A stretch of 4,826 bases of DNA from a virus. Taxonomy: Duplodnaviria; Heunggongvirae; Uroviricota; Caudoviricetes. Below the pieces are notes generated by a model, which was given only the letters and a program-made list of their open reading frames with translations, did no database searches and was not told where the DNA came from. Shown here piece after piece: positions 1,091 to 3,657 of this stretch. The translations under genes and the position numbers were made by a program. Numbering within the stretch: the first letter of the stretch is position 1; each line of letters begins with the position of its first letter. The stretch lies in IMG/VR virus record IMGVR_UViG_2713896787_000012; one strand, written 5' to 3'.

Positions 1091-1418
1091 AATTAAAGAA
1101 ATGCCGGTAGTTCGTGACGGATATGGCTACTGGACACATCCTGAATATGAAAAATTCTGTGATGGTCGGGAATATATTTCAACGGAAGAGTTTAACGCCT
1201 GGATGGAGGAAAATAATCTTCAATANNNNNNNNNNNNNNNNNNNNNNNNNNNNNNNNNNNNNNNNNNNNNNNNNNGTGCTGACCTTGATGCGTGTGATGC
1301 TGATATTTCTGCATGGGAACCGGAACGACCAGAGGGCGATGGCTGGTTTATTGGTTCCATTCATGATACGGAAGATGGCCCGGTTTGTGTCTGGTTGCGA
1401 AATAAGGCTGAAGCATAA
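1083..1418 (+). CDS. Hypothetical phage protein (about 111 aa), interrupted by a 50-nt N run
   Basis: GTG 1083 is preceded by AGGAGG at 1071-1076 (6 nt spacing) and overlaps the upstream gene by 8 nt. Protein-like sequence on both sides of the gap (MSKIKEMPVVRDGYGYWTHPEY... / ...WEPERPEGDGWFIGSIHDTEDGPVCVW). Frame continuity across the Ns is assumed, not proven. Confidence 0.55.
   Translation: MSKIKEMPVVRDGYGYWTHPEYEKFCDGREYISTEEFNAWMEENNLQXXXXXXXXXXXXXXXXXXADLDACDADISAWEPERPEGDGWFIGSIHDTEDGPVCVWLRNKAEA
1226..1275. other. Run of 50 N (masked or unsequenced bases) inside CDS 1083-1418
   Basis: Directly visible in the sequence. Confidence 0.99.
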
Positions 1419-1517
1419 AGGCGATAAACCAACTAACAACTAAATACTGAAGATTTAAATCAGAAACGATTTTTATTAAATCCTTAACCGGAGGGATTCC
1501 TGCACCCTCAGAACATC

Positions 1518-1540
1518 AGGAGGCCGCCCGAAAGGGCGGT
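1518..1540 (+). promoter_or_regulatory. Structured ribosome-binding region: SD AGGAGG (1518-1523) followed by a GC stem with GAAA loop (1523-1540), just upstream of ATG 1546
   Basis: Stem ccgccc (1524-1529) pairs with gggcgg (1534-1539) around loop gaaa. The hairpin sits between a strong SD and the start codon, so folding would bring the SD to about 5 nt from the ATG. No U-tract follows, so it is not a terminator. Confidence 0.35.
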
Positions 1541-1545
1541 AAGAA

Positions 1546-1765: not shown

Positions 1766-2323
1766 ATGAGCACTATTACCAGAGAACGCGCGGAGATTAA
1801 ATCATACATCACAGGCTTCCTGAGCGACTCGGCGCACGATAACAAGTCTTCAGACAGCCTGCTGGCTAATGTGTTTCGTATCGCGCTGGCATCACTGGAA
1901 GCAGAGCCGATAGCAATGGTAGTGCCTGATGAAATGGATTTGCTTACCTGCCATCTCGACGGTGTAACTAAAACATATGCTGATGGCTGGAACGCCTGCC
2001 GCGTCGCCATGCTTCAGGCCGGAAACTTTCGGGAAAATAAGAATTCGTCAACCAACAATTTTCGGGAAATCTCGGAAACGTCAACCAGATCTCCGATAAC
2101 TCTGGATGGCTGGATAAGCTGTACTGAGCGAATGCCTGAAAAGAGCCAGAACGTGCTTATTTCGATGAATATCGATAGCGAGGCTGGGCCATTAATATAT
2201 TCCGCACGCTATCTCGGAGGCACGTTCCGGCGCGGAGGTATAGCAGTTAGTCCGGGTAATGATCTTAGGCAAGCAACCCACTGGATGTCGCTACCAGAAC
2301 CGCCGCAGGAGGTGAATCAATGA
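1766..2323 (+). CDS. DUF551-like phage protein (185 aa)
   Basis: SD AAGGA at 1753-1757, ATG 1766. C-terminal region (WISCTERMPE ... THWMSLPEPP) matches my recollection of the conserved DUF551 C-terminal signature common in lambdoid nin regions. Confidence 0.7.
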   Translation: MSTITRERAEIKSYITGFLSDSAHDNKSSDSLLANVFRIALASLEAEPIAMVVPDEMDLLTCHLDGVTKTYADGWNACRVAMLQAGNFRENKNSSTNNFREISETSTRSPITLDGWISCTERMPEKSQNVLISMNIDSEAGPLIYSARYLGGTFRRGGIAVSPGNDLRQATHWMSLPEPPQEVNQ

Positions 2324-2403
2324 CCTGGCCTGAAGCATTCACAACGGTAGGAATTGCGATGGCGGTGGCGCTGGTGGAGTATTCGATTTGCCGCTGGGGA
2401 TAA
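2320..2403 (+). CDS. Candidate micro-protein (27 aa, hydrophobic): MTWPEAFTTVGIAMAVALVEYSICRWG
   Basis: ATG 2320 overlaps the upstream stop (ATGA) and is preceded by AGGAGG at 2307-2312 with 7 nt spacing. Too short for the ORF track. Ends TAA 2401-2403, immediately before the hok promoter. Confidence 0.35.
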   Translation: MTWPEAFTTVGIAMAVALVEYSICRWG

Positions 2404-2410
2404 AAACGGT

Positions 2411-2438
2411 TTGCGGGAAAAGGATAGTTAAGTAGAAT
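2411..2438 (+). promoter_or_regulatory. Putative sigma70 promoter of the hok mRNA (-35 TTGCGG 2411-2416, 16-nt spacer, -10 TAGAAT 2433-2438)
   Basis: Hexamers and spacing read directly. The predicted +1 (about 2445) coincides with a GGGTGCTTGAGGC motif resembling the 5' end of plasmid R1 hok mRNA (GGCGCTTGAGGC, from memory). Confidence 0.5.
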
Positions 2439-2492
2439 TGCAGCGGGTGCTTGAGGCTATCTGCCTCGGGCATGAACACCAACGGCAGATAG

Positions 2493-2566
2493 AGAAAAGC
2501 CCCAGTTAACATTACGCGTCCTGCAAGACGCTTAACATTAATCTGAGGCTCAATCCATGCTGAACA
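2493..2566 (-). ncRNA. sok: Sok-like antisense RNA (type I antitoxin), about 70 nt, complementary to the hok leader and mok translation-initiation region
   Basis: Minus-strand promoter lies just to the right; the transcript would start near 2565 and run leftward across the mok ATG (2557). It ends in an imperfect hairpin (gcgtc/gacgc core at 2515-2530 flanked by 9-bp ttaacatta repeats) followed on the minus strand by ttttctc (2498-2492). Ends are approximate. Confidence 0.5.
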
Positions 2567-2799
2567 CATGTAGGTTAGCCTCTTACGTGCCGAAAGGCAA
2601 GGAGAAGCAGGCTATGAAGCAGCAAANNNNNNNNNNNNNNNNNNNNNNNNNNNNNNNNNNNNNNNNNNNNNNNNNNATCGTCATCTGTTTAACCGTCATA
2701 GTGACGGCACTGGTAACGAGGAAAGACCTCTGCGAGGTGCGAATCCGAACCGGTCAGACGGAGGTCGCTGTCTTCGTAGACTACGAATCTGAGAAGTAA
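2557..2799 (+). CDS. mok: Mok-like leader reading frame, in frame with and containing hok (arrangement as in chromosomal mokC/hokC)
   Basis: ATG 2557; N-terminus MLNTCRLASYVPKGKEKQA resembles the MokC N-terminus (MLNTCRVPLTDRKVKEKRA, from memory) and reads straight into the hok start MKQQ. Confidence 0.55.
   Translation: MLNTCRLASYVPKGKEKQAMKQQXXXXXXXXXXXXXXXXXIVICLTVIVTALVTRKDLCEVRIRTGQTEVAVFVDYESEK
2572..2600 (-). promoter_or_regulatory. Putative sok promoter on the minus strand (-35 TTGCCT, 17-nt spacer, -10 TAACCT)
   Basis: Reverse complement of 2595-2600 (aggcaa) gives TTGCCT and of 2572-2577 (aggtta) gives TAACCT, with a 17-nt spacer. Position matches the R1 sok promoter embedded antisense in the mok 5' region. 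Confidence 0.5.
2614..2799 (+). CDS. hok: Hok/Gef-family type I toxin (small membrane toxin); N-terminal/transmembrane part masked by 50 N
   Basis: After the gap: IVICLTVIVTALVTRKDLCEVRIRTGQTEVAVFVDYESEK, nearly identical in pattern to the HokC/Gef core (ALVTRKDLCEVHIRTGQTEVAVFTAYESE, from memory). ATG 2614 (MKQQ) is preceded by AAGGAGAAG. Stop TAA 2797-2799. Apparent length of 61 aa depends on the true gap size. Confidence 0.85.
   Translation: MKQQXXXXXXXXXXXXXXXXXIVICLTVIVTALVTRKDLCEVRIRTGQTEVAVFVDYESEK
2627..2676. other. Run of 50 N inside hok/mok
   Basis: Directly visible in the sequence; covers the hok N-terminal/transmembrane coding part. Confidence 0.99.
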
Positions 2800-2806
2800 G
2801 AGACCA

Positions 2807-2861
2807 GGCGGGGGAGTAATCTCCCGCCACCTCTGATGTGTCAGGCATCCTCAACGCACCC
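2807..2861 (+). promoter_or_regulatory. hok mRNA 3' region: stem-loop (2807-2828) plus fold-back element (2849-2861) complementary to the mRNA 5' end
   Basis: ggcgggggag / taat / ctcccgcc hairpin with no U-tract, then cctcaacgcaccc complementary to 2445-2456. Consistent with the fbi/tac pairing that keeps full-length hok mRNA translationally inert. Confidence 0.5.
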
Positions 2862-2918
2862 GCGCTTTACCATACTGAAAATGCTGTTTGAATGTTCATC
2901 TCTGAAAGAGGACTATGA

Positions 2919-3263
2919 ATGAAAAAGGTATTGATTGCAGCACTTATTTCCGGTGTGTCTTTTGGCGCTTTTGCACAGCAGGGTGGTTTCCAGGGGCCAG
3001 AAGCAGAGCGTTCAACAGTAGCGCAGGCAAAAGAACTGAAGGATGATGCATGGGTTATCCTTGAAGGGAGCATCGTTAAAAAAGTGGGTGATGAACGTTA
3101 TGAGTTTCGTGACAATAGCGGGACAATTGTCACGGATATTGATGACAGCGTATGGGCCGGGCAGAATGTTTCTCCGAAAGACAAAGTAAGAATTGAGGGT
3201 GAAATTGATAAAGACCTGAGCAGTGTTGAAGTTGATGTAAAGGCACTGAAATTATTAAAGTAA
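2919..3263 (+). CDS. YgiW/YdeI (BOF, DUF388) family secreted OB-fold protein (114 aa) with Sec signal peptide
   Basis: SD AAGAGGA at 2906-2912, ATG 2919. Signal peptide MKKVLIAALISGVSFGAFA followed by QQ. Body (WVILEGSIVKKVGDERYEFRDNSGTIVTDIDDSVW...VRIEGEIDKD...VEVDVK) matches the YgiW/YdeI family pattern as I recall it. Own terminator downstream. Confidence 0.85.
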   Translation: MKKVLIAALISGVSFGAFAQQGGFQGPEAERSTVAQAKELKDDAWVILEGSIVKKVGDERYEFRDNSGTIVTDIDDSVWAGQNVSPKDKVRIEGEIDKDLSSVEVDVKALKLLK

Positions 3264-3281
3264 CCGCCCCTGCTTGTTAAG

Positions 3282-3308
3282 CCCGTCTTACTGACGGGTT
3301 TTCTGTTT
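3282..3308 (+). terminator. Rho-independent terminator after the YgiW-like gene
   Basis: Stem cccgtc (3282-3287) / gacggg (3293-3298) with loop ttact, followed by ttttctgttt. Confidence 0.7.
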
Positions 3309-3335
3309 GTACATTCCGGCGTATTGCCTTACAAT
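3307..3335 (+). promoter_or_regulatory. Weak candidate promoter for the downstream genes (-35 TTGTAC 3307-3312, 17-nt spacer, -10 TACAAT 3330-3335)
   Basis: Hexamer match only; it sits between the terminator and the next CDS. Confidence 0.3.
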
Positions 3336-3384: not shown

Positions 3385-3657
3385 ATGACACAACACATAA
3401 AATCCCACAATTCTGAAGCCGACCCGGAAATTAAGCAGGGGAGGCGTTTTCGTGCGCCTCAGTATGGCTGGTTTCACTATCTGTTCTGTACGATCGATGA
3501 GGCAGATATGCTTCAAGAGGCGTATCTGCGTCGCGGTGTCCGTGTGGAGCGGAGTCTGAACGCTGATCGTCTGACCTGGACCGTTTCTGTATATCTTCCT
3601 GTTCGTGCACATCTGCCACGGACACATGCCTGCTACCGTCAGCGCGTCTGGAGGTAA
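3385..3657 (+). CDS. Hypothetical small protein (90 aa), translationally coupled to the downstream YdfU-like gene; occupies the position of rem in the E. coli Qin prophage
   Basis: Good SD (GGAG, about 6 nt spacing) before ATG 3385. Stop TAA 3655-3657 lies inside the junction TAATGTG, where GTG 3659 starts the next gene. Homology to Rem is not established. Confidence 0.5.
   Translation: MTQHIKSHNSEADPEIKQGRRFRAPQYGWFHYLFCTIDEADMLQEAYLRRGVRVERSLNADRLTWTVSVYLPVRAHLPRTHACYRQRVWR

What the first reader, a model, noticed from the sequence alone, without database searches (positions are those of the whole stretch)
2411..2865. Complete hok/sok-type type I toxin-antitoxin locus inside the prophage nin region
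The region has every element of the hok/sok paradigm in the correct order and spacing: a promoter, a structured leader, an in-frame mok leader ORF ending with the toxin, a Hok/Gef-family toxin ORF, an antisense promoter and small RNA overlapping the mok start, and a 3' element complementary to the 5' end. This is a known family, but as a prophage-borne copy it may act in prophage maintenance, post-segregational killing or abortive infection, and it is easy for gene callers to miss.
Basis: partly seen in the sequence, partly recalled or inferred. Interest (0 to 1): 0.7.

Follow-up and report, generated by a model that had tools for sequence, protein, structure and literature searches.

The report
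Known hokW/sokW toxin-antitoxin in prophage

Summary

- **Family matches.** Window 2411-2868 carries a complete hok/sok-type type I toxin-antitoxin cassette. The leader matches Rfam RF01794 at 113.5 bits (threshold 59). The ORF matches Pfam Hok/Gef with E 4e-23.
- **Identity.** The locus is 98.7% identical to the annotated hokW/mokW/sokW of phage 933W. It is 100% identical to hundreds of STEC chromosomes.
- **Experimental precedent.** The allele in prophage Sp5, identical to 933W's across the cloned fragment, was shown to be a working toxin-antitoxin pair that speeds lysis and doubles phage release on induction (Takada 2021). The window differs from that tested fragment at 16 of 607 bases. None of these falls in a promoter hexamer, tac, ucb, a Shine-Dalgarno site, a start codon, the visible coding sequence or fbi.
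- **RNA structure.** The 5'-3' fold-back appears in the minimum-energy fold (z = -7.4). Compensatory changes across 34 related loci support it.
- **Caveats.** A 50-N mask inside hok hides only 20 real bases. The Rfam "sok" model actually matches the hok-sense leader. mok is in frame with hok, unlike in R1. The terminator that follows fbi in relatives is missing here, so transcripts may run into a linked YgiW-like gene.

Novelty: already known. Interest is low.

The parts
2411..2438 (+). hok promoter: -35 TTGCGG (2411-2416), 16-nt spacer, -10 TAGAAT (2433-2438)
   Evidence: Read from the sequence. A -10-like hexamer lies 6-7 nt before the conserved GGG 5' end in most relatives with an intact 5' end, although their flanks diverge. 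Both hexamers are unchanged relative to the tested Sp5 fragment. Not found by the generic scan.
2445..2868 (+). hok (mok-hok) mRNA. Real length would be 394 nt once the 50-N mask is replaced by the 20 true bases. The 3' end is inferred.
   Evidence: The Rfam RF01794 match starts at 2445. The fold of the gap-filled RNA gives -162.6 kcal/mol, z = -7.36. The end is placed just after fbi by analogy and was not measured.
2445..2456 (+). tac element (GGGUGCUUGAGG) at the 5' end
   Evidence: Pairs with fbi in the minimum-energy fold. Pairs with ucb when the first 61 nt fold alone. Positions 4, 11 and 12 covary with fbi.
2497..2503 (+). ucb / anti-Shine-Dalgarno box (AAGCCCC)
   Evidence: Pairs with the mok SD region in the full-length fold and with tac in the isolated leader, which is the Rfam consensus structure. 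The stem shows compensatory changes, AU:24 / GC:10.
2495..2565 (-). Sok antisense RNA, 71 nt: a 14-nt single-stranded 5' tail followed by a long hairpin and a U tract
   Evidence: Corresponds to the sokW feature annotated in 933W. The minus strand folds to -30.0 kcal/mol (z = -5.0), against -19.1 for the plus strand at the same coordinates. A Northern probe equivalent to 2535-2564 detected sokW in an Sp5 lysogen.
2572..2600 (-). Sok promoter: -35 TTGCCT (2600-2595), 17-nt spacer, -10 TAACCT (2577-2572), start site at 2565
   Evidence: The sequence is identical to Sp5. There, mutating the bases equivalent to 2571, 2572, 2575 and 2577 abolished the antitoxin effect. The promoter position is conserved in all 34 related loci while the transcribed Sok region diverges.
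2545..2548 (+). mok Shine-Dalgarno site (GAGG), inside the Sok target
   Evidence: Conserved 8-10 nt upstream of the mok ATG in most relatives. Sequestered by ucb in the full-length fold.
2557..2799 (+). mok ORF, in frame with hok (an N-terminally extended Hok, 70 aa in reality)
   Evidence: ORF list. Corresponds to mokW of 933W. An in-frame start upstream of hok is present in 26 of 34 relatives, and about 20 of them share the MLxxxRLASYxPKGKE-type leader.
2599..2604 (+). hok Shine-Dalgarno site (AAGGAG)
   Evidence: Read from the sequence. Nearly invariant (GGCAAGGAG) in the 34-locus alignment.
2614..2799 (+). hok toxin ORF. It is 51 aa in reality; the window shows 186 nt because of the mask.
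   Evidence: Pfam PF01848 at 81.1 bits, E 4.3e-23 when gap-filled, and 74 bits on the visible part only. PGAP names it 'Hok/Gef family protein' WP_000813258.1 in an E. coli chromosome identical over this segment.
2627..2676 (.). 50-N mask that replaces 20 real bases (hok codons 5-11)
   Evidence: Alignment with relatives whose flanks are 100% and 98.7% identical.
2807..2828 (+). 3' stem-loop (9 bp, GUAA loop), expected to protect the processed mRNA
   Evidence: Fold. Conserved with compensatory changes across relatives. The equivalent stem in R1 is required for stability of the truncated mRNA (PMC9841398).
2849..2861 (+). fbi element (CCUCAA-C-GCACCC), complementary to tac
   Evidence: Covariation with tac.
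2305..3310 (+). 1-kb mobile module shared with 933W/Sp5: orf27 (2320-2403), hok/sok, a YgiW/BOF-family gene (2919-3263) and a terminator (3279-3301)
   Evidence: blastn of the window against 933W, tblastn, Pfam/NCBIfam and the terminator scan.

Best explanation
The locus is an intact allele of the hokW/mokW/sokW type I toxin-antitoxin system, carried on a roughly 1-kb module in the early-right (nin-equivalent) region of a lambdoid prophage of Shiga-toxigenic E. coli.

**Proposed mechanism.** The sequence elements are shown here. The dynamics are inferred from R1 hok/sok and the Sp5 allele.
1. A weak constitutive promoter makes a stable mok-hok mRNA, about 394 nt if it ends just after fbi.
2. 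The 5' end (tac) pairs with the 3' fbi. The ucb box sequesters the mok Shine-Dalgarno site, so the full-length RNA is neither translated nor bound by Sok.
3. Slow 3' trimming back to the stem-loop at 2807-2828 frees tac to pair with ucb. This exposes the mok ribosome-binding site.
4. The unstable 71-nt Sok RNA comes from its own promoter on the opposite strand. It pairs with that region, blocks mok translation (and therefore the coupled hok translation), and marks the duplex for RNase III.
5. When Sok synthesis stops, the 51-aa Hok peptide is made, inserts in the inner membrane and kills or lyses the cell.

**Most likely role.** In a prophage, the role with direct experimental support, from the near-identical Sp5 allele, is to accelerate lysis and raise phage release after SOS induction.
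For: - **Family models:** Rfam RF01794 at 113.5 bits against a threshold of 59. Pfam Hok/Gef E 4e-23.
- **Identity:** 98.7% to the annotated hokW/mokW/sokW of 933W. 100% identity over the hok/sok segment (2380-2900) to STEC chromosomes where PGAP calls a Hok/Gef protein.
- **Closeness to the tested allele:** only 16 of 607 bases differ from the Sp5 fragment, none in a defined element.
- **Experiments on Sp5:** HokW is toxic. sokW neutralises it. Mutating the sokW -10, which is identical in the window, removes protection. Sok disappears and HokW reaches the inner membrane after mitomycin C in a RecA-dependent way. Deleting the locus delays lysis and halves phage release.
- **Folding:** full-length RNA z = -7.36 with tac-fbi and ucb-SD pairing in the minimum-energy structure. 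The isolated leader forms tac-ucb instead. Sok folds to -30 kcal/mol, z = -5.0.
- **Covariation over 34 loci:** 97.7% of cells are paired. 15 pairs carry double changes, against 8.9 +/- 1.5 in shuffles (0 of 500 reach it) and 2-7 in slid controls. tac position 4 with its fbi partner is UA:20 / CG:11.
- **Paradigm:** the R1 mechanism is as described in PMC9841398.
Against: - No RNA or protein data exist for this exact copy.
- Twenty bases of hok are masked and only inferred.
- No intrinsic terminator follows fbi here, unlike hokD-type relatives and R1. The real 3' end, and hence whether fbi lies at the end of the transcript, is therefore unknown.
- The Sp5 data come from a copy at a different prophage position and in the opposite orientation to its neighbours.
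- The Sp5 deletion carried a kanamycin cassette that could be polar on the linked YgiW-like gene.
- RNase III and Hfq dependence was only partial.
- Other hok copies in the same genome can carry an identical Sok region (locus L009 is 71/71 identical). They could buffer this copy in trans.
Confidence: 0.9

Rival explanations
1. The copy is an inactive relic, like the hok loci of E. coli K-12 (recalled from the literature, not checked here). On this reading it is conserved only because the prophage is young.
For: Chromosomal hok loci are very numerous: 4716 of 5426 complete genomes have a match, with a median of 2 and up to 10 places per genome. Some relatives fetched here lack a recognisable 5' end, fbi or in-frame mok. 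The canonical terminator after fbi is missing.
Against: All regulatory elements are intact and identical to the Sp5 allele shown to be toxic and Sok-regulated. The protein is identical in every visible residue. No insertion or rearrangement lies inside the locus.
Confidence: 0.04
2. The main role is addiction or post-segregational killing. Cells that lose or excise the prophage lose Sok first and are killed by the stored hok mRNA, which stabilises the prophage.
For: This is the founding function of R1 hok/sok on plasmids. The 933W annotation already says 'prophage maintenance'. The stable, structured mRNA and the unstable-antisense architecture are present.
Against: Never tested for hokW. Deleting it did not affect growth of the lysogen. 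An identical or near-identical Sok region occurs in a hokD-type locus of another strain (L009 71/71, L006 65/71), and genomes carry several hok loci. Such copies could rescue loss of one copy in trans.
Confidence: 0.2
3. The main role is abortive infection or exclusion of other phages. Host transcription shut-off by an infecting lytic phage depletes Sok, and Hok kills the cell before the invader matures.
For: R1 hok/sok on a high-copy plasmid reduced T4 plating by 42% and plaque size by about 85%, as cited in Takada 2021. Prophage accessory cassettes are often defence genes.
Against: No test exists for hokW. The R1 effect is modest and depends on high copy number. I did not run the PADLOC library on HokW.
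Confidence: 0.15
4. In this module the hok promoter and leader mainly serve as the lysogen-expressed transcription unit for the downstream YgiW/BOF-family periplasmic gene. Read-through would occur because the terminator after fbi was lost.
For: Homology with hokD-type loci breaks at about 2870, exactly where their terminator begins. No promoter-like site lies between fbi and the YgiW-like ATG, and the first strong plus-strand terminator is at 3279-3301. hok and the YgiW-like gene travel together between two different prophage positions.
Against: Purely positional. The full hok regulatory apparatus is conserved and functional in Sp5, which this reading does not explain. Transcript ends have not been mapped.
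Confidence: 0.1

Closest known systems
hokW/mokW/sokW of Stx-converting phages 933W (AF125520) and Sp5/VT2-Sakai (AP000363)
   Same: 98.7% nucleotide identity across the locus. Hok/Mok residues are identical wherever visible. The Sok promoter, tac, ucb, Shine-Dalgarno sites and fbi are identical. The same linked orf27 and YgiW-like gene are present.
   Different: Genome position. In 933W, Sp5 and Stx2 phage I the module lies between the tail-fibre gene and att, antiparallel to the adjacent tail gene. Here it lies co-directionally in the early-right region upstream of DUF968/RusA/Q. There are also 4 substitutions between the hok -35 and fbi: 2425, 2442, the Sok loop at 2522, and 2807, which adds a base pair to the 3' stem.
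hokD (relF)-type loci of Qin-like and PPompW lambdoid prophages
   Same: 92% identical Hok protein (L006, L009). The position upstream of rem/ydfU(DUF968) is the same. The leader architecture is the same, and in L009 the Sok region is identical 71/71.
   Different: hokD-type loci keep a canonical terminator about 8 nt after fbi and have no YgiW-like gene. From my own knowledge, K-12 hokD itself sits behind relBE without its own leader; I did not check this here.
hok/sok of plasmid R1 and flmA/flmB of F
   Same: Same element order and logic: tac, ucb, Sok target with the mok SD, Sok promoter overlapping the hok SD region, 3' stem-loop and fbi. The same Rfam leader model matches at 89-93 bits.
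   Different: Hok is only about 44% identical. mok is out of frame with hok in R1/F but in frame here. The Sok hairpin here carries an extra insertion of about 18-20 nt compared with many relatives. R1 has a terminator-like hairpin (GC-rich stem plus T run, read by eye) a few nt after fbi, and the window has none.

Membership tests
hok/sok type I toxin-antitoxin family | Toxin of the Hok/Gef family (Pfam PF01848) | tested here: met
   81.1 bits, E 4.3e-23 for the gap-filled protein, and 74 bits on the visible residues alone (threshold 22). Residues 5-11 are masked and inferred from relatives.
hok/sok type I toxin-antitoxin family | hok mRNA leader matching the curated covariance model (Rfam RF01794) | tested here: met
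   113.5 bits against a gathering score of 59, covering the full model, on the hok-sense strand 2445-2619. The same model and strand match R1-type, F-type and other loci.
hok/sok type I toxin-antitoxin family | Overlapping mok reading frame whose ribosome-binding site lies in the antisense target | tested here: met
   ATG at 2557 with GAGG at 2545-2548, both inside the Sok-complementary region 2495-2565. mok is in frame with hok here, as in mokW.
hok/sok type I toxin-antitoxin family | Antisense Sok RNA with its own promoter and a terminator-like hairpin | tested here: met
   TTGCCT-17-TAACCT on the minus strand. The 71-nt RNA folds to -30 kcal/mol, z = -5.0. The -10 is identical to the one validated by mutagenesis in Sp5. 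Transcription from this copy was not observed.
hok/sok type I toxin-antitoxin family | 5'-3' fold-back (tac/fbi) supported by folding and covariation | tested here: met
   Present in the minimum-energy fold. -21.5 kcal/mol against shuffles at -14.4 +/- 2.3. Compensatory changes occur at tac positions 4, 11 and 12.
hok/sok type I toxin-antitoxin family | Alternative pairings ucb-mok SD (closed) and tac-ucb (open) | tested here: met
   The closed form appears in the full-length fold. tac-ucb forms in the isolated leader and is the Rfam consensus structure. The ucb-SD stem covaries. The switch itself is inferred.
hok/sok type I toxin-antitoxin family | Slow 3' processing to an active truncated mRNA, and RNase III cleavage of the Sok duplex | not testable with these tools
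   The protective 3' stem-loop is present (2807-2828). Smaller hokW RNAs and partial RNase III dependence were reported for Sp5.
hok/sok type I toxin-antitoxin family | Intrinsic terminator shortly after fbi (typical of relatives, not strictly defining) | tested here: not met
   None between 2861 and 3279. hokD-type relatives have a canonical terminator 8 nt after fbi, and R1 has a GC-rich hairpin plus T run read by eye from the sequence.
hok/sok type I toxin-antitoxin family | Toxicity of Hok and its neutralisation by Sok | not testable with these tools
   Shown for the Sp5 allele, whose coding sequence and Sok promoter are identical to the window's.
hokW/sokW allele of Stx phages | Near-identity of the whole cassette and of the linked YgiW-like gene | tested here: met
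   98.7% over 491 nt. The shared module 2305-3310 is 95-98% identical.
hokW/sokW allele of Stx phages | Location between the tail genes and att | tested here: not met
   The window copy lies between DUF551 and DUF968/RusA/Q. The 933W and Stx2 phage I copies lie next to att.

The most novel reading that the evidence does not exclude
In this prophage the hok cassette is wired differently from the textbook case in two ways. It has lost the terminator after fbi, so it may be co-transcribed with a YgiW-like periplasmic OB-fold gene. It also sits co-directionally inside the pR early operon. On induction, antiterminated read-through would collide head-on with the Sok promoter and produce 5'-extended hok transcripts. 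That would give a built-in, transcription-coupled trigger for Hok release and would explain why Sok vanishes on induction.
Probability: 0.1. Interest if true: 0.4.

Novelty: already known. Interest (0 to 1): 0.12.

Why it matters
It matters little as a discovery. The system was annotated in phage 933W in 1999 and shown to work in Sp5 in 2021. Matches to this segment occur in most complete E. coli genomes, and Rfam "sok" hits are reported as frequent near prophage sRNA genes that share this gene neighbourhood.

It is still useful in three ways:
- as a positive control for the scan;
- as a reminder that mok and Sok are usually left out of RefSeq annotation;
- as a pointer to two small open questions: where hokW transcripts actually end, and whether the position of the cassette in a prophage changes how it is triggered.

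Tried and rejected
- **Generic promoter and terminator scans.** They found nothing at the locus. Both promoters have one hexamer below the 4-of-6 threshold. I do not know why the scan missed the Sok hairpin, which has internal mismatches. I did not take this as evidence of absence, because the promoters are positionally conserved and the sok -10 has been validated experimentally.
- **NCBIfam.** The Hok models matched below their curated cut-offs (53.6 bits against 73). This explains PGAP's generic name and is not evidence against membership.
- **Pas sRNA preprint.** I checked it for an overlapping known sRNA. It only reports that Rfam Sok hits are common near PasA in the same RusA/DUF1627 context.
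- **Mis-registered comparison.** A first comparison with the Sp5 fragment was out of register and is discarded. It was redone correctly.
- **Exact length of the R1 transcript.** I could not establish from the held papers how the R1 full-length mRNA terminates, so the 3' end at about 2868 remains an analogy.
- **Large protein and structure searches.** I did not run them, because the small libraries already gave decisive answers.

Full report
**What is in the window.** The 4826-base window is the early-right part of a lambdoid prophage of E. coli.
- The hok/sok segment (2380-2900) is 100% identical to the chromosome of STEC strain E2865 and many others. The rest of the window matches E2865 at 94-99.9%.
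- All genes lie on the plus strand: DUF1627, a DNA-binding protein, two small ORFs, DUF4014, DUF551, hok, a YgiW/BOF-family gene, a 90-aa ORF, DUF968 (YdfU-like), then RusA. In E2865 an antiterminator Q follows. Calling this the nin region is reasonable by position.
- Both N runs are exactly 50 N, but they stand for 26 and 20 real bases in the closest relative. They are masks, not true lengths.

**Checking the observation.**
- Rfam RF01794 matches 2445-2619 on the plus strand at 113.5 bits (threshold 59, E 3.6e-26).
- The ORF 2614-2799 spans the second mask. Filled with the 20 bases found in relatives with 100% and 98.7% identical flanks, it encodes MKQQKAMLIALIVICLTVIVTALVTRKDLCEVRIRTGQTEVAVFVDYESEK.
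- This protein matches Pfam Hok/Gef at 81 bits. The visible 40 residues alone give 74 bits.
- mok starts at 2557, in frame with hok, behind a GAGG site at 2545-2548.
- The hok promoter is TTGCGG (2411-2416), 16-nt spacer, TAGAAT (2433-2438), with +1 near 2445.
- The Sok promoter on the minus strand is TTGCCT (2600-2595), 17-nt spacer, TAACCT (2577-2572), with its start at 2565 and a 3' end near 2495.
- fbi (2849-2861, CCUCAA-C-GCACCC) is complementary to tac (2445-2456).
- The generic consensus scan found neither promoter, because each has a hexamer below its threshold.

**It is a known locus.**
- The segment is 98.7% identical to phage 933W, where hokW, mokW and sokW are annotated at the equivalent coordinates.
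- Takada et al. 2021 (PMC8621323) cloned the Sp5 fragment equivalent to window 2314-2950. They reported five results:
  - HokW is toxic.
  - sokW expressed from its own promoter neutralises it.
  - Changing the -10 box at the bases equivalent to 2571, 2572, 2575 and 2577 removes protection.
  - After mitomycin C, Sok disappears and HokW accumulates in the inner membrane in a RecA-dependent way.
  - Deleting the locus delays lysis by about 40 minutes and halves phage release.
- The Sp5 fragment is identical to 933W's. The window differs from it at 16 of 607 positions:
  - 12 lie upstream of the hok promoter;
  - one lies in the promoter spacer (2425);
  - one lies between the -10 and +1 (2442);
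  - one lies in the apical loop of the Sok hairpin (2522);
  - one (2807) adds a G-C pair to the base of the 3' stem-loop.
- No defined element is touched.

**RNA structure.**
- The gap-filled 394-nt RNA folds to -162.6 kcal/mol. Shuffles average -121.3, giving z = -7.36.
- In that fold, nt 1-12 pair with fbi, and the GCCCC box (ucb, 2497-2503) pairs with the mok Shine-Dalgarno region.
- The first 61 nt on their own form the tac-ucb hairpin, which is also the Rfam consensus structure.
- Sok folds into a 14-nt single-stranded tail plus a long hairpin at -30.0 kcal/mol (z = -5.0). The plus strand at the same coordinates reaches only -19.1, so the hairpin is more stable on the Sok strand.

**Covariation.**
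- I fetched 47 related loci from Escherichia, Shigella, Kluyvera, Citrobacter, Photorhabdus, Pantoea, Erwinia and others and aligned 34 full mRNAs.
- RNAalifold recovers the end-to-end helix, the ucb-SD stem and the 3' stem-loop.
- On that structure 97.7% of cells are paired. 15 pairs carry changes on both sides, against 8.9 +/- 1.5 in shuffles (0 of 500 reach it) and 2-7 in slid controls. The structure was derived from this same alignment, so the comparison leans in its favour.
- In the tac/fbi helix, position 4 is U-A in 20 loci and C-G in 11. Position 12 is G-C in 22 and A-U in 11. Position 11 is G-C, G-U or A-U.
- For the window, the tac-fbi duplex is -21.5 kcal/mol, against -14.4 +/- 2.3 for shuffled 3' UTRs (14 of 2000 reach it).
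- The Sok promoter keeps its position in all 34 loci, while the transcribed Sok region diverges to 28-71 of 71 identities.

**Differences from the textbook case.**
- mok is in frame with hok, so Mok is an extended Hok. In R1/F-type loci it is out of frame.
- The Rfam family named "sok" models the hok-sense leader from +1 to the hok ATG. In every locus tested it hits the hok strand. It should not be read as locating Sok.
- hokD-type relatives carry a canonical terminator (AACCCGC-TTCG-GCGGGTTTTTT) 8 nt after fbi, and R1 has a GC-rich hairpin plus T run a few nt after it (seen by eye in the sequence). In the window and in 933W the homology breaks at about 2870. The next strong plus-strand terminator is at 3279-3301, after the YgiW-like gene. 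The real 3' end is therefore unknown, and read-through into that gene is possible.
- The roughly 1-kb module 2305-3310 (orf27, hok/sok, YgiW-like gene, terminator) is shared with 933W/Sp5. There it lies next to att, antiparallel to the adjacent tail gene. Here it occupies the position that hokD-type genes have upstream of rem/ydfU in Qin-like and PPompW prophages.

**Mechanism and role.** The regulatory logic is taken from R1 (summarised in PMC9841398) and fits every element seen here. The physiological role with direct support is help with lysis and release on induction. Addiction and abortive infection remain untested rivals that are not mutually exclusive. Genomes usually hold several hok loci (median 2, up to 10 places). 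A hokD-type locus from another strain (L009) has a Sok region identical to the window's, so similar copies could buffer this one in trans.

**Verdict.** The locus is already known, and interest is low.

Noticed in passing
window 1226-1275 and 2627-2676: Both N runs are exactly 50 N but replace 26 and 20 real bases in the closest relative. The masks do not preserve length, and coordinates downstream of each are inflated (by 24 and 30).
   Followed up: yes
window 2320-2403 (+): A small hydrophobic 27-aa ORF (MTWPEAFTTVGIAMAVALVEYSICRWG) overlaps the DUF551 stop codon (ATGA). PGAP does not call it. It is conserved upstream of hok in L006/L011 (96%) and in 933W/Sp5 (77%), and it has no Pfam or NCBIfam match.
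   Followed up: partly
window 2305-3310: A module of about 1 kb (orf27, hok/sok, YgiW/BOF-family gene, terminator 3279-3301) is shared with 933W/Sp5. There it sits at a different prophage position and in the opposite orientation to its neighbours, so it behaves like a mobile accessory cassette.
   Followed up: partly
window 2862-2918: No intrinsic terminator or promoter-like site lies between fbi and the YgiW-like gene. hokD-type relatives have a canonical terminator exactly where the homology breaks, at about 2870.
   Followed up: partly
window 2445-2619 (+); also L002, L016, L029, L037, L047, L050, L051: Rfam RF01794, labelled 'sok antitoxin', always matches the hok-sense strand from the mRNA 5' end to the hok ATG. 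Its hits mark the hok leader, not the Sok RNA.
   Followed up: yes
window 3385-3657 (+): A 90-aa ORF with no family match. Relatives at 31-35% identity lie downstream of hokD-type loci (L007-L009), at the position annotated as rem in Qin-like and PPompW prophages.
   Followed up: partly
L029 1356-2706: Photorhabdus temperata carries three hok leaders in tandem about 625 bp apart. Several Photorhabdus genomes hold many hok loci.
   Followed up: no
L022 (Xanthomonas pisi, 431-bp contig) and L014 (Acinetobacter idrijaensis, 275-bp contig): These tiny contigs carry E. coli-type hokW at 91-100% amino-acid identity, and L022 also carries orf27. They look like E. coli or phage contamination of those assemblies.
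   Followed up: no
window 2800-2861 (equivalent region in Sp5): The primers published for the Sp5 hokW-3FLAG strain replace the 3' stem-loop and half of fbi. The deletion strain carries a kanamycin cassette upstream of the YgiW-like gene. The reported phenotypes could therefore include polar or structural side effects.
   Followed up: no
window 1419-1545: A 127-bp AT-rich intergenic stretch ends in a GC hairpin (GGCCGCCCGAAAGGGCGGT) just before the DUF4014 gene. It has no Rfam match. I did not examine it further.
   Followed up: no
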